Shown: piece after piece, positions 1 through 11,413 of the stretch | How the letters are laid out: each line of letters starts with the position of its first letter | How positions within the stretch are numbered: position 1 is the stretch's first letter | Virus genome (UHGV): UHGV-0295468 | Strand: one strand, 5' to 3' | Length of the DNA stretch: 11,413 nucleotides | DNA from: a virus | Notes under the pieces: model-generated | Database searches by the model: none | What the model was told of the DNA's origin: nothing | What the model saw: the letters and a program-made list of their open reading frames with translations, nothing else | Made by a program: the position numbers and the translations under genes

Positions 1-136
1 CACCTTATGACTGGAAGCCGATCAGGGTGGTTTGTCGTAAATGGTCGGCAAGCGTGGGGGCGTTGTGGGTAACCATAACGGCAGATTTTGAACAGGTCGT
101 GGCATAGGAGGCTCTGATGCAGGATATTCCACAGGA
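1..136. repeat. Left-terminal inverted-repeat arm: exact reverse complement of 287..422; carries an inverted copy of the M 3' end (plus-strand codons 3..107, stop 108..110) and of the first 6 codons of L (117..134)
   Basis: Base-by-base comparison: position i pairs with 423-i for i=1..136 with no mismatch; the match breaks at 137 vs 286. The arm runs to the window edge, so its true length may be larger. Confidence 0.95.
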
Positions 137-306
137 TGATACTGCCGCCCCTGCCAGGTAACCGGCTCACCTTTTTCGTTCTGCTCATTACAGAAAAAAT
201 AACGTTCACCACCGACCTCTGTCAGATCGATTTCCCAGAGCACCGCCTGGGCTGACTGAGTGAGGCGTGTCGTCTCATGATGTGTTTCCTGTGGAATATC
301 CTGCAT
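22..306 (-). CDS. L: Minor tail protein L, N-terminal fragment only. About 57 codons (306..137) are L-like; the rest of the 94-codon ORF (136..22) is out-of-frame read-through into the inverted-repeat arm
   Basis: Translation MQDIPQETHHETTRLTQSAQAVLWEIDLTEVGGERYFFCNEQNEKGEPVTWQGRQY closely matches the lambda gpL N-terminus as recalled. ATG at 306..304 lies 9 nt after the M stop, preceded by GAGG. Similarity stops exactly at the 136/137 repeat junction; lambda L is about 230 aa, so this copy is truncated. Confidence 0.8.
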   Translation of the reverse strand: MQDIPQETHHETTRLTQSAQAVLWEIDLTEVGGERYFFCNEQNEKGEPVTWQGRQYHPVEYPASEPPMPRPVQNLPLWLPTTPPRLPTIYDKPP

Positions 307-422
307 CAGAGCCTCCTATGCCACGACCTGTTCAAAATCTGCCGTTATGGTTACCCACAACGCCCCCACGCTTGCCGACCATTTACGACAAACCACCCTG
401 ATCGGCTTCCAGTCATAAGGTG
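287..422. repeat. Internal partner of the left inverted repeat; this copy is contiguous with the intact M gene and the L start codon
   Basis: Reverse complement of 1..136 (136/136). It lies within genuine coding context: L start ATG at 306..304, M stop TAG at 318..316, M C-terminal codons up to 422. Confidence 0.95.
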
Positions 423-645
423 GCGTCCACTGAAATGCGCGGACGCCACCGTGCCGTTCCAGAAAGGATTTTAAAGATGGGTGTTCACATTTACGAACAC
501 GTATCGTCACGCTGTAAGTCGACAACTGGTTATTCAGTCCCGCCGCACGACGCTGTTCATAACCATCGCCCAGCTTCACTGTCACCACTTTCGGCTCTGA
601 TACCACATTCATATCCGGGCGCACTTTCCAGTGAAACGTCTCCAT
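316..645 (-). CDS. M: Minor tail protein M (109 aa)
   Basis: Same length as lambda gpM with clear similarity along the protein (METFHWKV..., WTPPYDWKPIRV..., ...FEQVVA). ATG at 645..643 overlaps the H stop TAA (647..645) by one base; correct position between H and L. Confidence 0.9.
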   Translation of the reverse strand: METFHWKVRPDMNVVSEPKVVTVKLGDGYEQRRAAGLNNQLSTYSVTIRVRKCEHPSLKSFLERHGGVRAFQWTPPYDWKPIRVVCRKWSASVGALWVTITADFEQVVA

Positions 646-3600
646 TACCGATATGCTCCACTTAACCGACCACCATCACGGGCCTGCTGTTGCATAAAGT
701 CCGCTGCCGCTTTTTTCCCAAGGTCATAAACCACCTTCAGGGCAGCAGGACCTATCTGCCCGTTCGTGCCATCGTTATTGATCTCGATGTTGTACTGCGG
801 GGCAAACATCGCCATACCTGAACCACCAATATCCGCCACAACCCCCAGCTTACCGTCAGCACCACGACGCAGTGGCAGAATGGCTTCAGGTCCAGCTTCC
901 CCCATCACACCCGCGCCTTTTGCAAAAGCAAAAAACGTCGGACGGTTAACCACCGTGCCACTGTAGCGACTCAAATCAGCCGACTGATAAACACCGCCAT
1001 CAGCATTGGCTACAAAATCAAAAGGCAGCGCGGAAGCAATGCCTTTTACCGCTTTCATTAAAGCTATCTGAGCCATGATTCTGGACATATCTGACAGCAC
1101 AGAAGAGGTGAAGGATTTGAAATTGAGTTTGCCTGTAGTACAGAATGTCGCCAGCCAGTCACTCATGCTACTGAACGCAGACGTGAACAACTGTTCCACT
1201 GTCCCGGCTGTGTTATCCGCATTCTCAGTGACATTCTGGAGTGCACGCAGGACTCCGTTTTTCCAATTACCCTGAGCAATTTCAAGCCGTTGCCAGTAAC
1301 GGCGATTCTCATTCAGTTGTCGGTTCAGACTCTCCGTCAGCGCCTGCTCGGCCTTTCTGTAGTCATCCGTGTTATATGTCCCTTTCTGCTCACTATCCCG
1401 CCTCAACTGCTCCAGCTGTTGCTGGTATTTCTGGCGAAGACTCAGTTGTACCTGATATCGCTGCCGCTGCTGATCACCCATACCCACCGTGGCGATATCC
1501 AGGTCATGTTGCTGACGCTGAGCGCGCTCTTCTTCAGCCAGTTGACTGGTCAGCTGAATTGTTTTTTTCTTCAGATCGTTGAGTGCCGTCTGTTTCTGAA
1601 GCTCCTGCTGTTTTACATCCAGCAGCGTCAGTGCCTGAATCAGTTCATCTTTACGGGCCAGCACACTCTTTTCATCTGCCGTCAGTTTTTTCCCGTCCAG
1701 ATCGCTGATGCGCTGCTGCAGAGCCAGAAGCTGTTTATGCGCTTCTGTCATCTTTTCAGTGGCAATGCCTGCTGACTGTCTTGCAGCAGCAATCTGTCCT
1801 TCCACCTGTGCCTGTTGCTGACTGTACTGCAGCAATAACCGGGTGGCCTCATCATTACGGGTTTCGCGTGTTTTTTTCTTACCGGATGCCAGGGCTTTCT
1901 CGTAACGTTCATTTTCACGTTGTATCGCCGCATCCCTGACAGCCTGATCGGCGTACTGCATGGCATTAATACGCGCAATTTCACGCTGATGTCGTGCAGC
2001 TTCCGTTTCATTCATCCGGTTCAGTGCAGCATTTTCAGCATTACGGCGTTTCTGTTGCTCCTGATAATTCCGCTCTGCCTGCTCTTTTGCATCCTGCAAA
2101 TCCTTCTGGCGTTTTTTCTCCTGAAGATCGTTAAGACGCTGCTGATCGTATTCAACCTGAGAAGATGATGCCGTCCAGGGGAGTCTTTTCGCCCGCGACA
2201 CTTTCTCCTGCAAAGTGGCAATCTGCGCATCCAGCGAATCTTCACGACCAATATTCATGGCCGCATCCCAGAACTGCTTCCACCAGTCAGACAAAGTTTG
2301 CAGCGTACTGCCCAGCGCATTGAGGTTATTATCAATATCCGCAGTACGCCGACCGGTTTCCTCTGCCAGTGCAGACATGGCTATCCGTGCCGCATCACTG
2401 GACCGCCCCTGCTCTCCAAGGACGCGTATCTGCTCAAGCTGAGTGGCAGTAAGAAAATGCAGCTCATTGTCCAGAGACTTCGCGGCATTTACAGGATCAT
2501 CCTTCAGCCGCTTAAACTGATTTATGGTATCGCTGACCGACTGGCCAACCGATCGCTCCATCTGTGCGGCAGCTCTCGCCACCATACCGATATCGTTTCC
2601 ACGAAATGCACCACTCCCCACCACCTGAGCCAGCGCACCGGCTGCAGCATGTTGCGTGATACCATTCCCGGAAATAGCACGACTGAGCGTCCACAGCTGC
2701 CCGGCAGTGACTCCGGCATAATGCCCCGTCAGCGACAGCTGGCGGTTAAATTCTTCCCCCTCCTTCTGACCGTCATACCAGGCTTTACCCAGGCCATAGA
2801 CAGCCGCGGCAATACCGCCAATAACCCCGCCAAGCATCATGCCTTTCGGTGACATCAATGTGTCTATCCACCCGGCACGGTTAGCCAGCGTTATTCCGGA
2901 TCCCCTCAGCGCACCTAAATTTCCGCGGGCCAGTTCACCTATCAGAACGCCTATCTCCTGACGGGCCGCTGCACTTTTCAGCCCCAGCGAATGCGTGGCT
3001 TTTCCTGCCTGCTCCATTTTGCGGATATACACTTCTGCAGCACTGCTTACCCCCAGCTGGGCAGCCTTGGCACGAAGCAACTCAGAAGAAGAAAGATTCT
3101 GGCGGGTTGCCTGCTCTTTAAGCTGACGGATAAACGCCACTTTCTGTCGGGTAGCCTCTTCCTCAGCCTGTGTAAGAACACGGGTTTTCGCCGTAACCTC
3201 AGAAATCAGCGCCAGATAATCCTGCTGACCAATCCCGCCACTGTTTCTGGCCTGTCGGATCTGCTGCTGAATACGCTGTAATTCCTGCAGACCCGCACTG
3301 GCCTGTTTCACACTGTCAATCTGACGATAAAACGCAGCAGCCGCTTTATCCTGAGCCTCCGCCAGAGCCATGGCCTGCGCCTGTTCCTCGCGCATTTTCT
3401 GGCTCAGCGCCTCCATACGCTGGCGGGTTTTCTCCACCTCGCGGGCCATGCGTTCATGAGCCTGTGCGTTCTTCTCCACCGTCTGCGCATGGACGGATGC
3501 GGCTGTTGCAGCCGAAGACGCCGCCTGCGTTGTCTGCCGGGCGGCCTGAGTCTGACGCTCCATAAAACGCTGCATACGGGCAGAAGACCGTTCTGCATCG

Positions 3601-3701
3601 CTGGCTGCACCATTCAGAAGGTTTTTGATACGGGGGATTTCATTTTTAAACTCTGCCGCATCAATCCCCAAATCAATGACCAGGTTGGCTATCTGGTCCA
3701 T
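645..3701 (-). CDS. H: Tail tape measure protein (gpH-like), 1018 aa from the ATG at 3701
   Basis: N-terminus MDQIANLVIDLGIDAAEF and C-terminus INNDGTNGQIGPAALKVVYD...RDGGRLSGAYR match lambda gpH termini as recalled. Long Q/A/E/R-rich coiled-coil repeats and a Gly-rich hydrophobic segment are typical of tape measure proteins. ATG at 3701..3699 is preceded by GGAGGTG with 6-nt spacing; the ORF track starts 10 codons earlier at a TTG (3731), which I consider less likely. Confidence 0.92.
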   Translation of the reverse strand: MDQIANLVIDLGIDAAEFKNEIPRIKNLLNGAASDAERSSARMQRFMERQTQAARQTTQAASSAATAASVHAQTVEKNAQAHERMAREVEKTRQRMEALSQKMREEQAQAMALAEAQDKAAAAFYRQIDSVKQASAGLQELQRIQQQIRQARNSGGIGQQDYLALISEVTAKTRVLTQAEEEATRQKVAFIRQLKEQATRQNLSSSELLRAKAAQLGVSSAAEVYIRKMEQAGKATHSLGLKSAAARQEIGVLIGELARGNLGALRGSGITLANRAGWIDTLMSPKGMMLGGVIGGIAAAVYGLGKAWYDGQKEGEEFNRQLSLTGHYAGVTAGQLWTLSRAISGNGITQHAAAGALAQVVGSGAFRGNDIGMVARAAAQMERSVGQSVSDTINQFKRLKDDPVNAAKSLDNELHFLTATQLEQIRVLGEQGRSSDAARIAMSALAEETGRRTADIDNNLNALGSTLQTLSDWWKQFWDAAMNIGREDSLDAQIATLQEKVSRAKRLPWTASSSQVEYDQQRLNDLQEKKRQKDLQDAKEQAERNYQEQQKRRNAENAALNRMNETEAARHQREIARINAMQYADQAVRDAAIQRENERYEKALASGKKKTRETRNDEATRLLLQYSQQQAQVEGQIAAARQSAGIATEKMTEAHKQLLALQQRISDLDGKKLTADEKSVLARKDELIQALTLLDVKQQELQKQTALNDLKKKTIQLTSQLAEEERAQRQQHDLDIATVGMGDQQRQRYQVQLSLRQKYQQQLEQLRRDSEQKGTYNTDDYRKAEQALTESLNRQLNENRRYWQRLEIAQGNWKNGVLRALQNVTENADNTAGTVEQLFTSAFSSMSDWLATFCTTGKLNFKSFTSSVLSDMSRIMAQIALMKAVKGIASALPFDFVANADGGVYQSADLSRYSGTVVNRPTFFAFAKGAGVMGEAGPEAILPLRRGADGKLGVVADIGGSGMAMFAPQYNIEINNDGTNGQIGPAALKVVYDLGKKAAADFMQQQARDGGRLSGAYR

Positions 3702-4035
3702 AACGCACACCTCCGGAAATACCTTCCCCAAGATGCATCAGTTCTTCGTCCGTTCGCTCCGGTATCCCGTTCTCTTCCGGTAAAAGGCTGAAATCAGCCA
3801 CCGCAGCATCACTGCTGCCGGACACCATTCTCACGATCAATGCCTTCAGCGAGGCAAACTGCGCATCCATCCACACATCACTGAAGCTCTGCATCCGGAA
3901 ATAATCGCCCCACTCACCAAGCTCAGTGGCCGACATTTCCGACAGCATCCGCCGCCAGTCTGCCCGCCGGAACTCCCGGGCAAGCCGCATGACAAACTGC
4001 ATTTCCCGCGTCAGGACTTTTCCGGCGTCAGCGCC
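3673..4035 (-). CDS. T: Tail assembly protein T segment: the -1 frame ORF overlapping the 3' end of G, probably expressed only as a G-T fusion by programmed -1 frameshifting
   Basis: The -1 frame relative to G is open from 4035 (just after an in-frame stop at 4038..4036) to the stop at 3675..3673. It overlaps the G stop and sits between G and H exactly as lambda T does. A lysine-codon slip site lies one codon before the G stop. The internal ATG at 4002 has no obvious Shine-Dalgarno sequence. Confidence 0.65.
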   Translation of the reverse strand, partial: GADAGKVLTREMQFVMRLAREFRRADWRRMLSEMSATELGEWGDYFRMQSFSDVWMDAQFASLKALIVRMVSGSSDAAVADFSLLPEENGIPERTDEELMHLGEGISGGVRYGPDSQPGH

Positions 4036-4397
4036 TCATGCTCATCATCCCCGGCATTATCAATGGCCCCCATACCGCTCAGCGACAGAACCATCTCCGC
4101 CCCCGCACCCAGGGCATCATACGACCATGTTGTAATAACGGATGCGCAAAGCGTCTCTACATCCTTAGACTGATCCGCATTCCACAGTGAGCGGGAAACC
4201 AGCCAGGCATTGATATCCATCCCCATCCGCAGAAAAGCAATCTGTCGTTCAGCCTCCGGCAGTTCTCCCTCACCGGCATCAAACTTTGCCGTTCGCTGCT
4301 GAACAAACGCCAGATATTCAATTCTCTGCAACCCGGACAGCTCACTGAGCACCACGGACTGTTTTTCATAATTAAACGTGCCCTGTTTCAGAAACAT
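4011..4397 (-). CDS. G: Tail assembly chaperone G (128 aa from the ATG at 4397)
   Basis: Translation MFLKQGTFNYEKQSVVLSELSGLQRIEYLAF... resembles lambda gpG (MFLK..., TLSELSALQRIEHLA...). GGTGGAG Shine-Dalgarno 6 nt upstream of the ATG at 4397..4395. The ORF-track start at 4439 is a TTG inside the upstream hairpin and is unlikely. Confidence 0.85.
   Translation of the reverse strand: MFLKQGTFNYEKQSVVLSELSGLQRIEYLAFVQQRTAKFDAGEGELPEAERQIAFLRMGMDINAWLVSRSLWNADQSKDVETLCASVITTWSYDALGAGAEMVLSLSGMGAIDNAGDDEHEALTPEKS
4017..4023 (-). other. Candidate -1 ribosomal frameshift site GGAAAAG (minus strand) linking G to T
   Basis: G-frame codons read CCG GAA AAG TCC TGA. An AAG-to-AAA lysine tRNA slip at 4019..4017 would enter the T frame. 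The only window where both frames are open is 4035..4014. The motif differs from lambda's GGGAAAG as recalled. Confidence 0.5.
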
Positions 4398-4413
4398 CAT
4401 GTTCTCCACCTGC

Positions 4414-4437
4414 AAAAAAGCCCCGGATAACCGGGGC
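4414..4437 (-). terminator. Intrinsic-terminator-like hairpin between V and G: 7-bp GC stem (GCCCCGG/CCGGGGC), 4-nt loop, followed on the coding strand by TTTTTT
   Basis: Plus strand 4420..4437 is gccccgg-ataa-ccggggc, preceded by A6 at 4414..4419; on the minus (coding) strand this is a stem-loop followed by a U6 tract, 20 nt after the V stop and immediately before the G ribosome-binding site. Confidence 0.55.
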
Positions 4438-4457
4438 AAATGATGAGTATCGTCCTG

Positions 4458-5201
4458 TTAACCTGCGGCGCTGACAGTCACCGCAGCCACAGCCACAAAA
4501 TTCCCGTCAGCGGTCATGCCCACAATGCTGACACTGCCCTGCTTCACGCCTTTCACCGTGGCCACAAGCCCGTTCAGGGTCACCGTGGCAGTCTGTGGAT
4601 CTGACGAATGCACACTGATCGCTTTGTCACTGGCTCCGTCAGGTTTTACTGTAAAGGTCAGCGTGGTGGTTGCTCCCACTTTTACACTGGCAGATGCCGG
4701 TGCCACCGTCAGCCCGGTAACGCTCACTGTTTCAGTGCCTTCCTCTGCCAGATACGGACGCCCCACACCGCTGATTTTCACAGTGCGGGTCATCACGTCT
4801 TTTGAGGCAATGGTTTTACCCAGTGAACTCAGCCAGCCACGGAAAACATCAACAGTACCGTTGGGATATTTGATACGAAACGCGCAGACTTCACCGGAGT
4901 CGAACAACTGAACCAGTTTTTTCTGCCCGCTGTCACCCGGACGCCAGGCCAGCGTCGCCGAAGTATCACCGACTGATTTCTGCCCCTGGGTTGTCGTTTT
5001 CCAGTCTGCATCTTCATCATCGAGATAAGTATCATCTTCTGCATCAGCGGTCATTTCGCCAGGTTGCAGATCCTTCACCATCGCAAGACGCAGCCAGTCA
5101 GTGTCCGACAAAGGGTTCGCAAATGCGTCGCCGTTGCCGGTATACATCCAGAACGTCGTCCCCGCACCTTTCGTCTTTGCCAGTGGATTTGGTGTGGTCA
5201 T
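4458..5201 (-). CDS. V: Major tail protein V with C-terminal Ig-like domain (247 aa from the ATG at 5201)
   Basis: Strong similarity to lambda gpV as recalled (KGAGTTFWMYTGNGDAFANPLSD..., DTYLDDEDADW..., YPNGTVDVFRGWLSS...). Perfect AAGGAGG Shine-Dalgarno 5 nt upstream of the ATG at 5201..5199. The C-terminal ~90 aa are Thr/Val/Ser-rich and Ig-like. The ORF-track start (GTG at 5276) would overlap U. Confidence 0.92.
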   Translation of the reverse strand: MTTPNPLAKTKGAGTTFWMYTGNGDAFANPLSDTDWLRLAMVKDLQPGEMTADAEDDTYLDDEDADWKTTTQGQKSVGDTSATLAWRPGDSGQKKLVQLFDSGEVCAFRIKYPNGTVDVFRGWLSSLGKTIASKDVMTRTVKISGVGRPYLAEEGTETVSVTGLTVAPASASVKVGATTTLTFTVKPDGASDKAISVHSSDPQTATVTLNGLVATVKGVKQGSVSIVGMTADGNFVAVAAVTVSAAG

Positions 5202-5211
5202 TGCCACCTCC

Positions 5212-5613
5212 TTAATTCGTGTACGTGATCTGGTACGTGATTTCCGCCATCGCCCAGGTGGCCATCTCATTATCACGTTGATAGTTAAAACCGAGTGGGA
5301 TCAGGGTGTCGATGAGTCCGGAAAGTGCCGGTACATCATTCAGGGCCGGGAAAATGGTGCTCTCCATCCACATATCCAGCTCTGAATCCGGTGCCTGTGC
5401 CCGGATGAAGACAGCAATATGCAGAACAGCCTGCCAGTCATCTTCATCCGTCATTTTTCCGGTGTACTGAGCATCACTCAGCCACACCGCCACGGCAGGC
5501 AGTTCCTGCGCATCAACAAATGCCGGAAGCCCGTCAAAAAACGTGGCGCTGTCTCCACACTGTTCCCGAAGGCGTGCCAGTACGACCTGGCGGATTTGTG
5601 TATGTCGGTTCAT
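5212..5613 (-). CDS. U: Tail terminator protein U (133 aa from the ATG at 5613; an alternative ATG at 5625 gives 137 aa)
   Basis: Similarity to lambda gpU (ATFFDG..., PAVAV..., YTG, DSELD.WMES, ITY.ITY). The ATG at 5613..5611 overlaps the Z stop TGA (5612..5610) in an ATGA arrangement, suggesting translational coupling. Confidence 0.88.
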   Translation of the reverse strand: MNRHTQIRQVVLARLREQCGDSATFFDGLPAFVDAQELPAVAVWLSDAQYTGKMTDEDDWQAVLHIAVFIRAQAPDSELDMWMESTIFPALNDVPALSGLIDTLIPLGFNYQRDNEMATWAMAEITYQITYTN

Positions 5614-6188
5614 CGGGTCAGCCATAACCTCAGTTGTTGTTTCAGTGCATACCCCAGCTGTTTCGGCATTTCCGCAGCAATGATGCGGTCGCGGGCATCT
5701 TCAAATGCCTGTGTCAGCGGTCCGGACAGCGGGATTTTCACCACATCAATGGGGTAACGATTTTTGCCATCAATACGCCGCATCACATGCCAGCGACCAT
5801 TCGCCAGTTGCTGAATAAACGCATCCCGGAAAAGATATTTACCCACCTTCAGCACACTGCCACGGTACTGCAGTTTTCCACCACGCCGGGCCAGTCTGAC
5901 CCGGGCTGTCCCCAGCTTAATGGCGGGAAGATTGCCCCGGTTAACGCGGATCCTGGCCGTCATTTTTCCTGACGGACTGGCTTTAAACACCCGGACACGC
6001 TGACGTACCAGTTTCAGGGGGATCCCTTTCACCTGGTTATCTCCCGCAACGGTATTCCCGGCAACCTGCCGGGTGGCAACCGAGACCGCTTTCTGTGCCA
6101 CACGGTTTATCGCCCATGCGCTGGCCTGTGGCACCATACGGGTATCAAGGCTGTTCAGATTGCGGATGGCATTCTCAAGCCCCTTCAT
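5610..6188 (-). CDS. Z: Minor tail protein Z (192 aa)
   Basis: Same length as lambda gpZ with near-collinear similarity (MKGLE..., PQASAW.INRVA, QRVRVFKA, IRVNRG.LPAIKLG, NGRWHVM.R..GKNRYPIDVVKIP, LGYAL). GAGGTG Shine-Dalgarno 5 nt upstream of the ATG at 6188..6186. Confidence 0.92.
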   Translation of the reverse strand: MKGLENAIRNLNSLDTRMVPQASAWAINRVAQKAVSVATRQVAGNTVAGDNQVKGIPLKLVRQRVRVFKASPSGKMTARIRVNRGNLPAIKLGTARVRLARRGGKLQYRGSVLKVGKYLFRDAFIQQLANGRWHVMRRIDGKNRYPIDVVKIPLSGPLTQAFEDARDRIIAAEMPKQLGYALKQQLRLWLTR

Positions 6189-6199
6189 CCCACACCTCT

Positions 6200-6775
6200 T
6201 TACTCAATAAAGATCATTGGCTTACCGTTAAAGCGTTCATGCCGTGTGACCGTCCATTGTTGTCCGTCATAAACAACGCGATCCCCGCGCCGTGGGCGGT
6301 ATCCCGAAGAAAACACCACCAGAGAGACTCTGATCCCTTTTCCCGGTTGGCAGCGCGTATGGATGCGATCACGGTCAGAAAGATGGGAAAGACAGCCTCG
6401 ATTAATGATGTCGATATGGCTGTGATCCCGGGAGAAACACTGGCAGAGCTGAATGCTCTGTCCGGACCTCGGCACTTCTTCTGCACTGGTTCCGGCATCT
6501 GCCCAGACAACCCCGACCAGCGGCTCAGAGCCGCTGTTAGTCAGCTGAACTTTTCCTGACTTCAGATAAACCTTCTTACCCGTTTTCATGTCATCCGTTT
6601 TCAGCTTAGGCAGCATAAACACACCTTCGGTTATGCCGTCGCCTGTTTCTCCCTGTGGAATATCGGTCAGCGCCACCGCAAAAACATCCCCCACCTGCAC
6701 CAGATCTCCGCTGCTGATGGCTGCACTGGCAACAATCGCCACCGTTTTTCCTTCTTCTACAAAATTCTTTGCCAT
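6200..6775 (-). CDS. Continuous 191-codon ORF: N-terminal ~115 aa resemble a gpD-like head decoration protein; C-terminal ~45 aa resemble head-tail joining protein gpFII; no stop codon between them
   Basis: ATG at 6775..6773 with GGAGA Shine-Dalgarno 5 nt upstream. N-terminal part (KTVAIVASAAISSGD..., YLKSGKVQL, VVWADAGTSAEE) resembles lambda gpD (AAVGILAVAAD, FYKSGTFRY, VLWPEAASDE). The C-terminus (GKGIRVSLVVF...RRGDRVVYDGQQWTV) resembles the lambda gpFII C-terminal region (GQGVRV...SLFV...RRGDTLTIGEENFWV). Whether this is one fused protein or two genes merged by a frameshift is unresolved. Confidence 0.55.
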   Translation of the reverse strand: MAKNFVEEGKTVAIVASAAISSGDLVQVGDVFAVALTDIPQGETGDGITEGVFMLPKLKTDDMKTGKKVYLKSGKVQLTNSGSEPLVGVVWADAGTSAEEVPRSGQSIQLCQCFSRDHSHIDIINRGCLSHLSDRDRIHTRCQPGKGIRVSLVVFSSGYRPRRGDRVVYDGQQWTVTRHERFNGKPMIFIE

Positions 6776-6818
6776 AACTGTCTCCGCACAGCCCCGTTCA
6801 GGGGCTGATTTCAGGTAC

Positions 6819-6838
6819 AAAAAAAGCCCTTACGGGCC
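6819..6838 (-). terminator. Weak terminator-like hairpin after the capsid ORF: 4-5 bp GC stem with GTAA loop followed by T7 on the coding strand
   Basis: Minus strand reads ggcccgtaagggc followed by ttttttt (plus-strand A7 at 6819..6825), 24 nt downstream of the capsid stop. The stem is short, so this is tentative. A second 5-bp GC hairpin (plus 6791..6805) sits just upstream of the next ribosome-binding site. Confidence 0.35.
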
Positions 6839-6861
6839 ATCAGAGTTGTTGTCTGCGACGT

Positions 6862-8820
6862 TTACGCCGTACATTTCACCAGGCCGCGGTGATCAACTGG
6901 CGCAACACCAGCGTCAATACGCACTTTCGTTGTCACGCCATCCACACTGAAGCCCTCCATCTGATCAATATATGGCGTATCCACACCGTTGAGATAAGCC
7001 ACTTCAATCGTATCGGAGCCTTTGGACGCAGCCAGGTAGAAGGTGGTCTGGCTGTTATCATCAAGACGAGGCTCTGCAATAACGGTCGCAAAATCTTTCA
7101 CCGGGTTAATAATACCGGCGTTAATGTCAGCCCCCTTGACACTTGAGGAGCGAATGACCTGGTTAGCAACAGACTCCATCGCCGTCGGTACCAGTACGAA
7201 CGCAGGACGAATATTCAGATGACGCTCACCCTCTTTCTGAACGCGCATCAACTGGCGGGCTTTATCCAGCGATGCCACGTCCATTGCCGCGCTCTCCAGT
7301 ACGTTTGCATGTTTCGCTTTATCGAACAGACTTACATTATCTGTGGAGATTTTCGGGTTAGACGTCAGAATGGCATAAACCAGATCGGCAATAGTGGATT
7401 TCGCCGCACGGCCCAGCTTCATCGGGACATCGGTCAGCATATTCAGATCATCATTGATAATGGCCTGACGGGTGATACTGAACAGCTCGCCATAGGTCGC
7501 CAGTGCAATAGTGGCCTGTTTATCTCCGGTGGTGACGTATTTATATTCTGCCCCTTCACGCACCTGACGCAGAGCACTGAAGCCCCCCATACCCACACGA
7601 TGGGCAATTTTAAAATCAGACAACTGACCTTTCCGCGTCCACTGTTCATAGGTTTCAGGGGCATCTTCCCAGCCCTGCAGAATGGCTTTGTTCGCAACAT
7701 CCAGCAGAATATTACCGAAGTCAGACGTACTGTGTGTGAACGCCGCACCGACCATCTGCATCGGGTTATAACTGGAAACACCAATACCACGTTCAGTCAG
7801 TGACATACGGGCATATTCACGCAGGGTCATCCCGTTGTAGACATTATCACGTTCAGTTTTTTCAAACCCGGCGCGCGCCATCAGCGCCTGGCGGATCCCG
7901 TCCCCCACAAAATTACCGTTACCGGCATAAATATGAGCCGGGGTATTTTTATTGGATGGCGTGGACTCGCGCCCCATCTCGTTCAACAGCTTTTCGCGGG
8001 CCTGCTCCAGCGAACATTCAGGATCGGCAAGACACTGAGCCTGCAACGACTGATAACGCCCGCCAAACATGGCAAACAGATCATTAATACCGTTTACACG
8101 CGCTTTTTGCTCTGCCAGGACCTGCGCACGGATGCTGTTTTCATCCACCACGGGTGCTGCTGCCTGCACTGGCGTCCGGGAGGCTGCAGGTCCATCATCC
8201 TGTACGCGTGGAGCACTGTTGCGTGGCGGAGTAATCATATTTCGAATGGATTCCGGCATCTTTTTAAATTCCTCTGTACGTTTTGACTGAATACATGCCA
8301 TTGCCTTAACGGCTGGTGTCACCTGATCAGCAAATCCCTGTGCCAGACATTCGGCACCGGACATCCAGGTCTCATCCGCCAGCATGGCAGCAATTTCATC
8401 GGTGGTTTTCCCGGTTTTCTGTGCATAAGCGGGTAACAGAACCGCCTCAACTTTATCGAGCAGGTCGGCATAGGTGCGCATGTCCTCCGCATCACCGCCC
8501 GTAAAGCCAAATGGTTTATGAATCATCATGAAGGAGTTTTCCGGCATAATGACCGGGTTTCCCACCATCGCAATGACCGACGCCATTGACGCCGCCACAC
8601 CGTCGACATAAACGGTAATGGACGCACCATGTGTTTTCAGTGCATTAAAAATGGCGATGCCTTCAAAGACATCGCCACCCGGTGAATTAATATGGAGATT
8701 AATGTGGGTGATATCGCCCAGTGCATTCAGATCACTGATAAACTGCTTCGCCGTAACACCCCAGAAACCAATCTCGTCATAAATATAAATATCCGCGTCA
8801 CTCTGGTGACCTGCCTGCAT
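6862..8820 (-). CDS. Prohead protease (ClpP/S14-like), scaffold-like linker and HK97-fold major capsid region in one 652-aa ORF
   Basis: N-terminal ~200 aa have ClpP-like features (IYIYDEIG..., INSPGGDVFEGIAIFNALK, VDGVAASMASVIAM, MIHKP). The middle is a charged Ala/Gln-rich region. The C-terminal ~330 aa look like an HK97-type capsid protein (no lambda gpE similarity). ATG at 8820..8818 lies 13 nt after the portal stop. The ORF-track extension to 9081 starts at a TTG and overlaps the portal by ~250 nt. Confidence 0.78.
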   Translation of the reverse strand: MQAGHQSDADIYIYDEIGFWGVTAKQFISDLNALGDITHINLHINSPGGDVFEGIAIFNALKTHGASITVYVDGVAASMASVIAMVGNPVIMPENSFMMIHKPFGFTGGDAEDMRTYADLLDKVEAVLLPAYAQKTGKTTDEIAAMLADETWMSGAECLAQGFADQVTPAVKAMACIQSKRTEEFKKMPESIRNMITPPRNSAPRVQDDGPAASRTPVQAAAPVVDENSIRAQVLAEQKARVNGINDLFAMFGGRYQSLQAQCLADPECSLEQAREKLLNEMGRESTPSNKNTPAHIYAGNGNFVGDGIRQALMARAGFEKTERDNVYNGMTLREYARMSLTERGIGVSSYNPMQMVGAAFTHSTSDFGNILLDVANKAILQGWEDAPETYEQWTRKGQLSDFKIAHRVGMGGFSALRQVREGAEYKYVTTGDKQATIALATYGELFSITRQAIINDDLNMLTDVPMKLGRAAKSTIADLVYAILTSNPKISTDNVSLFDKAKHANVLESAAMDVASLDKARQLMRVQKEGERHLNIRPAFVLVPTAMESVANQVIRSSSVKGADINAGIINPVKDFATVIAEPRLDDNSQTTFYLAASKGSDTIEVAYLNGVDTPYIDQMEGFSVDGVTTKVRIDAGVAPVDHRGLVKCTA

Positions 8821-8833
8821 CCTGAACCAGGAA

Positions 8834-10342
8834 TTATTCTTCGGACTGGTCGTCGGTGTGCTGCGGCTCCTGTCGTTTCGTTGCGGCACTGCTGCCTCCT
8901 TTATCACTGGCCGGATCGGTATCAAATACCAGATCCAGCTTGCGGTTTTCATCAATTTCGGCCTTGCGCCGACGTTTGACATCATCTGGATTACGACCAC
9001 CTGCACGTACCCAGTCTGATTCTGTCGCCGCTCCACCACGAATCTGAATTTTCCAGGCCTCAGCCTCCTTAACAGGGTCAATCCACGGCATCACCGGTCC
9101 GGAATACACCGCGGTATACAGTGAAGAACGATCAAGATCGCGGGGTAGCCTGATAACACCGGATGCCACAGCCTGTTTCAGCCAGGCACGATACATCGGG
9201 CGGGTGACGGCACCAATAAACCAGTCCTGCAGGATCAGGTAGCCATCAGTGGATTCAACCAGCTCCTGACGCTGGGCGCTGTAAGTGCCGTTATAGTTGC
9301 GCGCTGTACTGGAAAAACTCAGACGACTGCCCGCCGCCACGGCACGCAACTGACCATTACGAAAAGTTTCAAGATTAGGATTGGGGCGATCCGACTTCAC
9401 CATTCCGATTTCTTCGCCGGGTTTCAGATCGTCGTAAATAATGCCTGGCTGAATGGTAAGCTCGCGTTCCTTATCCTTGCTGCCATTACCATCCGGTTCA
9501 TAGCTCTGCCCGTCGCCTTTCCGGATGTACATCCCCAGAGCAGCGGCGATCCTTGCTGCAGTCAGCTCAGAATCTTCATACTCTTTCAGGGCACTGAGGC
9601 GGATCAGCACACCGGACAACAAAGACGTCCCGCGCATCTGGTGCAGACGGCGAACAAATTTAAGATGCAGCATTCGCTCTGCATCCACTTCTTTGGTTTC
9701 CATCTGCCGTCCGGATACGGGACGGCTTTTATACACCAGATATTTTTCGGGACGCCCCCAGTCATCAACAAACACGCCCTGATTCAGCCTGTTGCTCTCA
9801 TCACTGGTCATGGGAATAAAGTCCGGCTCGAGCGCCTCCAGCCAGAAATGAACACCGGCAGAAGGCGTCAGGCTGTTTATGCGCCCGGAAACCATCTGGG
9901 CAAACACCTCACCATCGCGCAGCCAGGTACGCAACATCAGACGTTCCAGCATCGGACGGGTAAACTGCCCGGTGACTTCCGGACTGACAGACCATTCACT
10001 CCATCGGGTGCGTATCTCCGCTGCCAGATCACGGGCAATGGCCCCATTGCGTAATACCGGATGTGGCTCGACAATAATCCCGTTTTTCCCCACCACCCGT
10101 TCTTCCAGCTTGTCAAATACACCAATGACCAGATCGTGGTTGTTATCAAGGTAACGGGCCTGCTCACGTAACGACACGGCCCCGTACTGGCTTAACTGGT
10201 CGGCAGTTCGGTTTTCCCGCCGGGCTTTGTGTGTCCGCGTCGTTTTTACGGCCTCATAAGCCTGGATCACCGCACGGGAACGCAGCCTTGCCGCTTTCCA
10301 TCCTGGTGAAAAAACGCCAATCACATCATCAAGAATTGCCAT
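8834..10342 (-). CDS. Portal protein (502 aa from the ATG at 10342)
   Basis: Size and position (between W/terminase and the protease-capsid gene) are typical of a portal; acidic C-terminal tail. The ATG at 10342..10340 overlaps the W stop TGA (10344..10342) in an ATGA arrangement. Assignment rests on synteny and general appearance, not on a recalled alignment. Confidence 0.8.
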   Translation of the reverse strand: MAILDDVIGVFSPGWKAARLRSRAVIQAYEAVKTTRTHKARRENRTADQLSQYGAVSLREQARYLDNNHDLVIGVFDKLEERVVGKNGIIVEPHPVLRNGAIARDLAAEIRTRWSEWSVSPEVTGQFTRPMLERLMLRTWLRDGEVFAQMVSGRINSLTPSAGVHFWLEALEPDFIPMTSDESNRLNQGVFVDDWGRPEKYLVYKSRPVSGRQMETKEVDAERMLHLKFVRRLHQMRGTSLLSGVLIRLSALKEYEDSELTAARIAAALGMYIRKGDGQSYEPDGNGSKDKERELTIQPGIIYDDLKPGEEIGMVKSDRPNPNLETFRNGQLRAVAAGSRLSFSSTARNYNGTYSAQRQELVESTDGYLILQDWFIGAVTRPMYRAWLKQAVASGVIRLPRDLDRSSLYTAVYSGPVMPWIDPVKEAEAWKIQIRGGAATESDWVRAGGRNPDDVKRRRKAEIDENRKLDLVFDTDPASDKGGSSAATKRQEPQHTDDQSEE

Positions 10343-10554
10343 CAGAACCTCGCAAGCCGGTACCCGGGATGCCCCCGTCGTCGTGTAATCAGAGCCGCAA
10401 GGCGGCGCTCCCACTCCTGCCGTCCCTGCCGGATCTCAGATAAGTTTTCCATGGTCATCTGCTGACCATTAAAGGTGACGGATTTTCCGTCCAGCACCGC
10501 CATTTCAGCTTCCGTATAACGCTGAATCATGGCTTCGATATCATTCTGGTTCAT
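10342..10554 (-). CDS. W: Head-tail joining protein, gpW-like (70 aa from the ATG at 10554)
   Basis: Small protein directly after the terminase gene with a C-terminal RRRGHPGY motif resembling lambda gpW (RRRGPAGF). The ATG at 10554..10552 overlaps the terminase stop TGA (10553..10551); GGAGG lies 6 nt upstream. The track ATG at 10560 has no spacer after the Shine-Dalgarno sequence. Confidence 0.7.
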   Translation of the reverse strand: MNQNDIEAMIQRYTEAEMAVLDGKSVTFNGQQMTMENLSEIRQGRQEWERRLAALITRRRGHPGYRLARF

Positions 10555-11330
10555 AACCATCCTCCGGAAGTCAGCCAGGGGTTAACATCGTCAGTTACTG
10601 TTTTCTTCCGTTTTTGTTTTTTAACAGGCGTGGATACCGGTTCCGGTGTGGGTGACGGTTCGGTACTGTCCGGGACACACTCCAGCCAGGTTTCCCGGCT
10701 CGCCCACTCCGGTGCATCCGGCCAGCGGATCTTTTCGTATCCATGCAGAATGACCAGAGCCTCGGCATACACCATCAGGTCAAAAGCTTCGTTGGCACCG
10801 CGACCCGGCTTACTCCATTTCCCGTCACTGCTCCGCTCTTCATACGTCAGTTCGTCGTAAAACCAGCTCCCCAGCCAGTCAGGGAAATGCACATAGCCGG
10901 GACCTGGCGAGTCACGCCATAACGCGTTATTCACCCGGTCTTTCAGGGCATCCGTCTGAAGAAGCCAGAGCGGTACATCACCTGCGGCCTGCGCCCGTCG
11001 GCCCGTTCGTCCGGTGTTATCAGGGAATGTACGGGTGATCAGTTTTGCGCGCCGGATGCTGTCGCCCTTAAACAGGTAAATACGTTTACCAAGGCCATCA
11101 CGACGGCAACGACGCCAGAATTTATAGGCATTATCAGTGACCCCGTCTTCACCGCCGGAGTCCACCGCCATTGCCATCAGTCGCATTTGTTGAGAAGGAT
11201 CGGAGGCCAGCGGCCAGCTTTTATGAAAAACATCCGTCAGCAGGACATCCCAGTCTTCCGGATAGCTGGCCGGATCAATTCGCTGGCTCTCCCCGATGGC
11301 GGTGGACTCCGGCGGTGAAGACGGGGTCAC
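10551..11330 (-). CDS. A: Terminase large subunit, C-terminal fragment only (about 248 codons, 11294..10551); the codons above 11295 are read-through into the right inverted-repeat arm and the N-terminal ATPase part is absent
   Basis: Position immediately upstream of W and portal with ATGA coupling to W; globular, Trp/Asp-rich sequence typical of a terminase nuclease domain. The ORF-track start is a GTG inside the inverted-repeat arm. Assignment is by synteny and general appearance; not verified by search. Confidence 0.7.
   Translation of the reverse strand: MTPSSPPESTAIGESQRIDPASYPEDWDVLLTDVFHKSWPLASDPSQQMRLMAMAVDSGGEDGVTDNAYKFWRRCRRDGLGKRIYLFKGDSIRRAKLITRTFPDNTGRTGRRAQAAGDVPLWLLQTDALKDRVNNALWRDSPGPGYVHFPDWLGSWFYDELTYEERSSDGKWSKPGRGANEAFDLMVYAEALVILHGYEKIRWPDAPEWASRETWLECVPDSTEPSPTPEPVSTPVKKQKRKKTVTDDVNPWLTSGGWL
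11054..11171. repeat. Internal partner of the right inverted repeat, inside the terminase coding sequence
   Basis: Exact reverse complement of 11296..11413 (118/118); position i pairs with 22467-i; the match breaks at 11172 vs 11295. Confidence 0.95.
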
Positions 11331-11413
11331 TGATAATGCCTATAAATTCTGGCGTCGTTGCCGTCGTGATGGCCTTGGTAAACGTATTTACCTGTTTAAG
11401 GGCGACAGCATCC
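11296..11413. repeat. Right-terminal inverted-repeat arm: exact reverse complement of 11054..11171, running to the window edge
   Basis: Base-by-base comparison with no mismatch over 118 bp, separated from its partner by a 124-bp unique spacer (11172..11295). The arm reaches the last base of the window, so the true length is unknown. Confidence 0.95.

What the first reader, a model, noticed from the sequence alone, without database searches (positions are those of the whole stretch)
3673..4397. G-T frameshift arrangement conserved, but with a non-lambda slip site one codon before the G stop
The T frame is -1 relative to G and the only stretch open in both frames is 4035..4014. The candidate slip motif is GGAAAAG (4023..4017), read as GAA-AAG in the G frame, where a lysine tRNA could slip from AAG to AAA. 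Lambda uses GGGAAAG as recalled, so the P-site codon differs here and shifting would rely largely on single-tRNA slippage. Predicted products are G (128 aa) and a G-T fusion of about 240 aa.
Basis: partly seen in the sequence, partly recalled or inferred. Interest (0 to 1): 0.42.

Follow-up and report, generated by a model that had tools for sequence, protein, structure and literature searches.

The report
Common G-T tail chaperone frameshift site
This is the ordinary lambda-type tail-assembly-chaperone frameshift (G and G-T) of a very common E. coli prophage. Its GGAAAAG slip site differs from lambda's by one base, but it is the commonest variant among the relatives sampled and is already annotated as the slip site in phage N15.

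Summary
G (4397..4011, minus strand) and the T frame (-1) share only 4035..4014, and the only slip-prone sequence there is G_GAA_AAG (4023..4017), one codon before the G stop. Pfam confirms lambda G, T, V and H homologues in lambda order.

Comparative data pin the shift to this heptamer. In 280 distinct related G-T junctions (42 clusters), a GGNAAAR heptamer lies exactly 20 codons before a conserved DW motif. The T frame often opens only 3-12 nt upstream. The T-frame peptide is conserved from the Lys codon onward, while the ATG at 4002 is not.

GGAAAAG is not exotic. It is the majority motif in my samples, and lambda's GGGAAAG is the minority. It is annotated as the slippery sequence in the N15 GenBank record. 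This exact module occurs in 1,840 of 5,426 complete E. coli genomes.

Heptamer position 1, a synonymous site in G, is G in every junction. That argues against pure single-tRNA slippage. I found no conserved downstream RNA structure and no selected upstream SD-like element.

Verdict: real, well supported, already known in kind, low interest. Separately, the window carries a 141-nt inversion and fold-back ends that look like assembly artefacts.

The parts
4011..4397 (-). Gene G, tail assembly chaperone: 128 aa from ATG 4397 (a second ATG lies at 4400), stop TGA at 4013..4011
   Evidence: Translation. PF06894 Phage_TAC_2, E 1.8e-39. Annotated by NCBI's pipeline as 'phage tail assembly chaperone G' starting at 4397.
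4404..4407 (-). Shine-Dalgarno GGAG of G
   Evidence: Read from the sequence. Duplex energy with the 16S rRNA 3' end is -6.4 kcal/mol.
4017..4023 (-). Slip heptamer G_GAA_AAG: P-site codon GAA (Glu), A-site codon AAG (Lys); after the -1 shift the tRNAs sit on GGA and AAA
   Evidence: A GGNAAAR heptamer sits at the homologous place in 280 of 280 distinct relatives. The same heptamer is annotated as the slippery sequence in N15.
4014..4035 (-). The only stretch open in both the G frame and the T frame (22 nt)
3673..4020 (-). T-frame part of the G-T fusion, read from the re-paired AAA (4020..4018) through GTC (4017..4015) to TGA at 3675..3673. Together with G residues 1-127 it gives a fusion of about 241 aa.
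   Evidence: Translation. PF06223 Phage_tail_T, E 5.1e-15. The T-frame peptide is conserved from the Lys codon onward in all relatives.
4000..4002 (-). ATG used as the T start in public annotations; probably not a functional start
   Evidence: Weak SD (-4.3 kcal/mol). An ATG at this codon occurs in only 7 of 65 distinct T N-termini, and 23 of 65 have no ATG in the first 20 codons. Annotations.
4034..4037 (-). SD-like GAGG 10 nt upstream of the heptamer (dnaX-like spacing); candidate stimulator, not supported as a selected element
   Evidence: The synonymous-recoding test gave Fisher p = 0.91.
4420..4437 (-). Terminator-like hairpin followed by a T run, between V and G
   Evidence: Annotated as a terminator in mEp460; a putative terminator stem-loop sits at the same place in N15.
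645..3701 (-). Tape measure gene H, downstream partner of G and G-T. Start at ATG 3701, overlapping the end of T.
   Evidence: PF06791, PF09718 and PF24622. Annotated start mapped from mEp460. SD duplex -10.8 kcal/mol.
4461..5204 (-). Major tail protein V, upstream neighbour
   Evidence: PF16461 lambda tail tube protein, E 1.2e-66, plus a Big_2 domain.

Best explanation
This is a programmed -1 ribosomal frameshift of the lambda G/G-T type. Most ribosomes translate G (128 aa) and stop at TGA 4013..4011. A minority slip back one base on G_GAA_AAG (4023..4017). tRNA-Lys re-pairs from AAG to AAA, and tRNA-Glu re-pairs from GAA to GGA (G:C, G.U, A:U). Those ribosomes then read GUC (Val) and continue in the T frame to TGA 3675..3673, producing a G-T fusion of about 241 aa with the junction ...TPEK-VLTREMQF... 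By analogy with lambda, the G part binds the tape measure protein and the T part recruits the major tail protein. The sequence and comparative evidence show the frame arrangement, the homology, the position of the shift and the conservation of the heptamer. The efficiency, the tRNA mechanics and the function of the fusion are inferred. The site appears to work without a conserved RNA stimulator, as is reported for lambda.
For: Gene identities and lambda gene order (Z-U-V-G-T-H-M-L) come from Pfam. T is -1 relative to G and the frames share only 22 nt. The slip Lys is positionally homologous to lambda's: K plus 11 residues to LARE in both. Anchoring on the DW motif 20 codons downstream, 280 of 280 distinct related G-T segments carry GGNAAAR at that place: GGAAAAG 189, GGGAAAG 82, GGCAAAA 7, GGGAAAA 1, GGTAAAG 1. 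In many lineages the T frame opens only 3-12 nt before the heptamer, and the G stop lies 0-1 codons after the Lys codon, so no other shift site is possible. The T-frame peptide K-[VAI]-x-x-x-E-x-x-F-x-x-x-LAREF is conserved from the Lys onward, whereas in-frame ATGs are not. Heptamer position 1 is the wobble base of the preceding Ala, Pro, Leu, Lys or Met codon. It is G in all 42 clusters at 85% identity. The product of synonymous-usage probabilities is 10^-17.8 if clusters are treated as independent, which overstates significance. The N15 record annotates GGAAAAG as 'slippery sequence for -1 translational frameshift'. Gifsy-2 reads CCG GAA AAG TCC TGA and its T is annotated as part of a frameshift hybrid protein. 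In E. coli, A_AAG is the most shift-prone tetramer (PMC4066793). The G_GAA_AAG heptamer does shift -1 in a reconstituted E. coli system when translocation is slowed (PMC6924986).
Against: No protein-level evidence exists for this phage type, and the fusion is not annotated in any close relative. G_GAA_AAG was used as the 'less slippery' control and gave mainly 0-frame product with wild-type EF-G (PMC6924986). A_AAG alone is barely above background without a stimulator (PMC4066793). I found no conserved stimulator. The downstream fold is unremarkable (z = -0.97 and -0.13). The consensus structure across 22 lineages is trivial (-1.5 kcal/mol, no covariation). The SD-like GAGG at -14..-11 is explained by amino-acid composition. 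The efficiency may therefore be low, and it is unknown.
Confidence: 0.85

Rival explanations
1. Pure single-tRNA slippage on the tetramer A_AAG. [quoted passage not shown] This is the first reader's version.
For: A_AAG is the best -1 tetramer in E. coli. Natural precedents are cited for CGA_AAG sites in IS1222 and Bacillus cdd. The second base of the P-site codon varies among relatives (GAA, GGA, GCA, GTA), so full P-site re-pairing is not required.
Against: Heptamer positions 1 and 2 are G in all 280 distinct junctions, although position 1 is a synonymous site following five different amino acids. All four P-site codons are G-N-A, which suggests selection on nucleotides rather than on the amino acid. 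Tetramers alone are at background without a strong stimulator, and no stimulator is conserved here.
Confidence: 0.1
2. T is made as a separate 109-aa protein from ATG 4002, as public annotations imply, and no frameshift is needed.
For: The ATG exists, and the mEp460, Tritos and RefSeq records annotate T as an independent CDS. Weak SD-like pairing is present (-4.3 kcal/mol).
Against: An ATG at that codon occurs in 7 of 65 distinct T N-termini, and 23 of 65 have no ATG in the first 20 T codons. Lambda has none there. T-frame residues upstream of the ATG, back to the Lys, are conserved. The heptamer and the frame relation are conserved in all relatives. The Ayreon record picks a different, later ATG, which shows the annotated start is arbitrary.
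Confidence: 0.04
3. Transcriptional slippage: RNA polymerase adds one A in the A4 run and so yields a G-T mRNA.
For: An A run lies at the junction. Adding one A would put T in frame and give the same protein.
Against: From general knowledge, four A residues are well below the length of the homopolymer runs known to support productive polymerase slippage. The conserved features (G at positions 1-2, the AAG register) fit ribosomal re-pairing, not run length. GGCAAAA and GGGAAAG relatives have equally short runs.
Confidence: 0.01

Closest known systems
Phage lambda G / G-T (-1 frameshift at G_GGA_AAG)
   Same: Homologous G (PF06894) and T (PF06223), located between V and H. T is in the -1 frame. 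The slip Lys is at the homologous residue, with the same spacing to LARE and DW. No conserved stimulatory structure was found, in line with what the Atkins review reports for certain tailed phages.
   Different: Heptamer position 3 is A rather than G, so the P-site codon is GAA (Glu) rather than GGA (Gly), and re-pairing needs a central G.U pair. The G stop lies 1 codon after the Lys codon rather than 5. GT protein identity to lambda is about 35%.
Phage N15 genes 14/15 (NC_001901, misc_feature 'slippery sequence for -1 translational frameshift')
   Same: Identical heptamer GGAAAAG in the identical register G_GAA_AAG at the homologous position. Phage phi80 has the same heptamer.
   Different: N15 keeps the lambda-like 5-codon distance to the G stop. 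GT protein identity is about 36%.
Salmonella phage Gifsy-2 STM1039 / STM1041.1n
   Same: Same local sequence, CCG GAA AAG TCC TGA. T is annotated as part of a 'G+G' frameshift hybrid protein'. It is the closest named relative outside the mEp460/cdtI group, at 55% GT identity.
   Different: A different host and a diverged protein sequence.
E. coli dnaX (A_AAA_AAG with an upstream SD-like element and a downstream stem-loop)
   Same: A -1 shift with tRNA-Lys moving from AAG to AAA. A GAGG lies 10 nt upstream of the heptamer here, the spacing of the dnaX SD-like stimulator as I recall it (10 nt; not checked in a paper here).
   Different: No conserved downstream hairpin. The SD-like element shows no synonymous-site selection. 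The P-site codon is not fully slippery. The expected efficiency is far lower.
A_AAG tetranucleotide sites (IS1222 G_CGA_AAG; Bacillus cdd A_CGA_AAG)
   Same: A non-canonical heptamer in which only the A-site codon re-pairs perfectly.
   Different: Here positions 1-2 are conserved and allow G:C plus G.U re-pairing of the P-site tRNA. CGA cannot do this.

Membership tests
Lambda-type tail assembly chaperone G / G-T with programmed -1 frameshift | The upstream ORF is a gpG homologue | tested here: met
   PF06894, E 1.8e-39, residues 2-122 of 129.
Lambda-type tail assembly chaperone G / G-T with programmed -1 frameshift | The downstream ORF is a gpT homologue | tested here: met
   PF06223, E 5.1e-15. 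Aligns with lambda T and 19 other T proteins.
Lambda-type tail assembly chaperone G / G-T with programmed -1 frameshift | Located between the major tail protein gene and the tape measure gene | tested here: met
   V (PF16461) lies upstream, and H (PF06791, PF09718) lies downstream. Z, U, M and L are found in lambda order.
Lambda-type tail assembly chaperone G / G-T with programmed -1 frameshift | T is in the -1 frame, overlaps the 3' end of G, and has no conserved start codon of its own | tested here: met
   The overlap is 22 nt. The ATG is not conserved, and the T-frame peptide is conserved from the slip Lys onward.
Lambda-type tail assembly chaperone G / G-T with programmed -1 frameshift | A slip-prone sequence in the overlap at the position homologous to lambda's | tested here: met
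   GGNAAAR occurs 20 codons before the DW motif in 280 of 280 distinct relatives, lambda included.
Lambda-type tail assembly chaperone G / G-T with programmed -1 frameshift | G and G-T are produced at a fixed low ratio (about 30:1 in lambda) and both are needed for tail assembly | not testable with these tools
   This requires protein analysis and genetics. The lambda values are taken from PMC5009743.
Canonical X_XXY_YYZ simultaneous-slippage heptamer | Positions 1-3 are identical and positions 4-6 are identical | tested here: not met
   G_GAA_AAG has A at position 3. It fits X_XXY_YYZ only if a central G.U pair is allowed. It would appear to fit the 'twofour' class that PRFect lists, though I did not see that class's definition (PMC10885494).
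dnaX-type stimulated -1 frameshift | A functional SD-like element 10-14 nt upstream | tested here: inconclusive
   GAGG lies at -14..-11. Of clusters of this type, 13 of 25 have a duplex energy of -5.5 kcal/mol or better at 8-14 nt, against 1 of 9 N15-type and 0 of 3 lambda-type clusters. The synonymous-recoding null gives Fisher p = 0.91.
dnaX-type stimulated -1 frameshift | A stable downstream stem-loop or pseudoknot 5-9 nt after the heptamer | tested here: not met
   z = -0.97 (92 nt) and -0.13 (57 nt). The RNAalifold consensus is -1.5 kcal/mol with no covarying pair in 22 lineages. No Rfam family matches.
Single-tRNA A_AAG tetramer slippage | The shift does not depend on the identity of the preceding codon | tested here: not met
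   Positions 1 and 2 are invariant G across 42 clusters although position 1 is synonymous. This is comparative evidence only; no functional assay was possible.

The most novel reading that the evidence does not exclude
In the lambda-like G/T family the P-site codon of the slip site is always G-N-A (Glu in 34 of 42 clusters; otherwise Gly, Ala or Val) and is always preceded by G. Nature may therefore require only first-position G:C re-pairing of the P-site tRNA together with a perfect Lys slip. The heptamer that biochemists used as the 'less slippery' control (G_GAA_AAG) would then be the predominant natural G-T slip site. That would imply either a G-T:G ratio tuned lower than lambda's, or an unrecognised stimulator. 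Candidates for such a stimulator are the 0-frame stop one codon downstream (164 of 189 GGAAAAG junctions) and the purine-rich, SD-like tract 10-13 nt upstream.
Probability: 0.3. Interest if true: 0.4.

Novelty: already known. Interest (0 to 1): 0.15.

Why it matters
The practical value is for annotation. This G-T module sits in about a third of complete E. coli genomes and in many sequenced phages. In every record I inspected that carries this module, T is annotated as a free-standing 87-109 aa protein starting at an arbitrary ATG, rather than as the C-terminal part of a frameshift fusion. The comparative table (heptamer GGNAAAR 20 codons before DW; invariant G at positions 1-2; free position 3) gives a simple rule for annotating the fusion. 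It also offers a natural series of P-site variants for testing how much P-site re-pairing a low-efficiency bacterial -1 frameshift needs. Biologically, nothing here is unexpected.

Tried and rejected
1. Downstream stimulatory RNA. Folds of 57 and 92 nt after the heptamer are no better than shuffles. RNAalifold on 22 lineage representatives found no structure and no covariation. Rejected.

2. Upstream SD-like stimulator. GGAG, GAGG and AGGA motifs pile up 10-13 nt upstream in the stop-proximal GGAAAAG group, which looked promising. A null that keeps the protein and resamples synonymous codons reproduces it (observed mean -5.12 versus null -4.90 kcal/mol, Fisher p = 0.91). The Glu/Gly-rich tail of G explains the pattern, so I do not claim it.

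3. Stop-codon proximity as a requirement. 22 of 189 GGAAAAG junctions, N15 among them, have the stop 5 codons away, so it is not essential.

4. Rfam. No family matches anywhere in the window.

5. Literature searches for 'GGAAAAG' returned mostly primers. The one useful hit was PMC6924986. Xu et al. 2004 and Levin et al. 1993 are not in the held library, so I could not check whether they list this heptamer.

6. The first viral-contig search with the window's own T returned only 100%-identical copies. The species-representative genome scan gave only 11 loci. I obtained diversity by querying with distant T proteins and with a DNA pattern.

7. Six DW-motif hits with CCTGCAA or CCTTCAA at the anchor position have a T-frame opening 363 nt upstream. 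I excluded them as probably spurious matches in the larger loci, without checking them individually.

Full report
**What is there.** The genes in this window lie on the minus strand. Pfam identifies, in order:
- the terminase C-terminus and the portal protein;
- a ClpP-protease/capsid fusion and a decoration protein;
- Z, U and V (lambda tail tube, PF16461);
- G (PF06894, E 1.8e-39) and T (PF06223, E 5.1e-15);
- the tape measure protein H, then M and L.

This is the lambda tail-gene order. The G-T stretch is at least 97.8% identical to 17 sequenced E. coli phages, including mEp460, cdtI, Tritos, HannyBb and Ayreon. At 95% identity or more it is present in 1,840 of 5,426 complete E. coli genomes.

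**Checking the observation.** The G frame ends ...GCG CTG ACG CCG GAA AAG TCC TGA, with the stop at 4013..4011. The T frame is -1 relative to G. It is closed by TGA at 4038..4036 and open from 4035. The two frames therefore share only 4035..4014, and the only slip-prone sequence there is G_GAA_AAG at 4023..4017. G is 128 aa from ATG 4397, and the fusion would be 241 aa with the junction TPEK|VLTREMQF. Lambda reads GCG GGA AAG followed by five more codons. Every statement of fact in the finding is correct. The heptamer by itself occurs 5 times in the window against 1.76 expected, so its significance comes from context rather than from its mere presence.

**Comparative evidence for the shift site.** The spacing from the slip Lys to the LARE motif is the same in lambda and in the window. 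I collected relatives in four ways:
- a scan of one genome per bacterial species;
- IMG/VR scans with distant T proteins as queries;
- a DNA-pattern scan of IMG/VR;
- named phages.

I anchored each junction on the conserved DW motif 20 codons after the Lys. All 280 distinct G-T segments carry GGNAAAR at that place: GGAAAAG 189, GGGAAAG 82, GGCAAAA 7, GGGAAAA 1 and GGTAAAG 1.

In many lineages the T frame opens only 3-12 nt before the heptamer, and the G stop follows 0-1 codons after the Lys codon. The frames then overlap by as little as 13 nt, which leaves room for nothing but the heptamer. Across 86 distinct 67-nt contexts of the GGAAAAG group, the heptamer is conserved in at least 90% at every position, while most flanking positions are conserved at 30-60%. 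From the Lys onward the T-frame peptide is conserved (K-[VAI]-x-x-x-E-x-x-F-x-x-x-LAREF). An ATG at the window's 4002 codon is present in only 7 of 65 distinct T N-termini, and 23 of 65 have no ATG in the first 20 codons. Its SD pairing is weak: -4.3 kcal/mol, against -6.4 for G and -10.8 for H. Independent initiation of T is therefore unlikely, even though every public annotation I inspected for this module draws T that way.

**How unusual is GGAAAAG?** It is not unusual.
- In clusters at 80% GT identity, 16 of 20 use it.
- In a pattern scan that did not favour either variant, 65 loci had GGAAAAG and 47 had lambda's GGGAAAG.
- The N15 GenBank record marks exactly GGAAAAG as 'slippery sequence for -1 translational frameshift'.
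- Gifsy-2 has CCG GAA AAG TCC TGA, and its T is labelled as part of a frameshift hybrid.
- Phage phi80 has GCG GAA AAG.

The variant is therefore already known at the level of genome annotation. My samples are biased toward relatives of the window, so the exact proportions should not be over-read.

**Mechanism.** In E. coli, tRNA-Lys reads both AAA and AAG, and A_AAG is the most shift-prone tetramer. Without a stimulator, however, tetramers are barely above background (PMC4066793; PMC5009743). G_GAA_AAG itself was used as the 'less slippery' comparison to G_GGA_AAG in a reconstituted E. coli system. It gave mainly 0-frame product with wild-type EF-G and shifted more with slow EF-G mutants (PMC6924986).

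The comparative data add one point. Heptamer position 1 is the wobble base of the preceding codon (GCG, CCG, CTG, TTG, AAG or ATG). It is G in all 42 clusters at 85% identity. The product of synonymous-usage probabilities is 10^-17.8, which overstates significance because lineages share ancestry. Even so, five different amino acids precede the heptamer. The P-site codon is always G-N-A: GAA in 34 clusters, GGA in 4, GCA in 3 and GTA in 1. This pattern is what selection for first-position G:C re-pairing of the P-site tRNA would produce. It is not expected if only tRNA-Lys mattered. For tRNA-Glu the -1 codon GGA gives G:C, G.U and A:U. The same GAA-to-GGA re-pairing has been noted for actinophage chaperone frameshifts (PMC10885494). 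Purine-rich P-site contexts are reported to favour -1 shifting in E. coli extracts (bioRxiv 10.1101/2025.10.02.679949).

**Stimulators.** I found none.
- Downstream folds are unremarkable, and 22 lineage representatives share no structure.
- A GAGG lies 10 nt upstream, and SD-like motifs cluster at 10-13 nt in this subgroup. A synonymous-recoding null reproduces this, so the acidic, glycine-rich tail of G suffices to explain it.
- The G stop is one codon after the Lys codon in 164 of 189 GGAAAAG junctions. It is five codons away in 22, N15 among them, so stop proximity is not required.
- The review literature states that frameshifting in certain tailed phages appears to work without stimulatory signals, and gives a product ratio of about 30:1 for lambda (PMC5009743).

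**Verdict.** The finding is real and correctly interpreted in its essentials. It describes an ordinary, very widespread member of the lambda G/G-T system whose slip-site variant has been recognised before. The single-tRNA emphasis is probably wrong. The efficiency of the site is unknown and may be lower than lambda's.

**Other observations.**
- The window has a 141-nt segment (6329..6469) inverted relative to all 16 related phages and all 1,826 E. coli genomes that carry this stretch.
- Its two ends are perfect fold-back copies of nearby sequence.
- The best genome hits cover only 137..11295.

These look like assembly artefacts. They do not touch the G-T region, which is 100% identical to at least eight complete genomes.

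Noticed in passing
window 6329..6469 (up to 6472 by BLAST): A 141-nt segment is inverted relative to mEp460 (record 6716..6856), with small losses at both junctions. None of the 16 phage records or 1,826 complete E. coli genomes that match this stretch has the window's orientation. The inversion removes the stop of the head-decoration gene and scrambles the first half of the next gene (head-closure protein, PF13856). That creates the odd 206-aa ORF 6200..6820 with two unrelated Pfam domains. It is either a rare real rearrangement that would inactivate head completion or an assembly artefact.
   Followed up: yes
window 1..136 and 11296..11413: Both ends of the window are perfect reverse-complement copies of nearby internal sequence (287..422 and 11054..11171, 100%). 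The best genome matches cover only 137..11295. These are fold-back ends, which I take to be assembly artefacts. The ORF at 22..306 (fragment of tail protein L) is affected.
   Followed up: partly
window 4437..4420 plus T run, minus strand: A terminator-like hairpin with a 7-bp all-GC stem followed by TTTTTT lies between the major tail gene V and G. It is annotated as a terminator in mEp460, and a putative terminator stem-loop sits at the same place in N15. It would lower G, T and H expression relative to V.
   Followed up: partly
L004 1117..1208 (lambda, 92 nt after its own heptamer): Lambda's sequence downstream of G_GGA_AAG folds better than shuffles (-38.7 kcal/mol, z = -2.4, 2 of 200 shuffles as good), starting 8 nt after the heptamer. 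The window's equivalent stretch does not (versus 41). I did not test it for conservation.
   Followed up: no
related loci, e.g. L089, L090, L093, L434: Some relatives (Kluyvera, Ewingella, Providencia) have G_GCA_AAA or G_GGA_AAA immediately followed by the G stop TAG. A stop codon in the A site next to a slippery Lys in the P site suggests a different kinetic route to the same fusion.
   Followed up: partly
window 6865..9081, minus strand: A single long ORF combines a ClpP-type protease domain with a major capsid domain (PF00574 plus PF25209). RefSeq annotates it as a 'ClpP-like prohead protease/major capsid protein fusion'. The maximal ORF overlaps the portal ORF, so the true start lies further downstream.
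   Followed up: no
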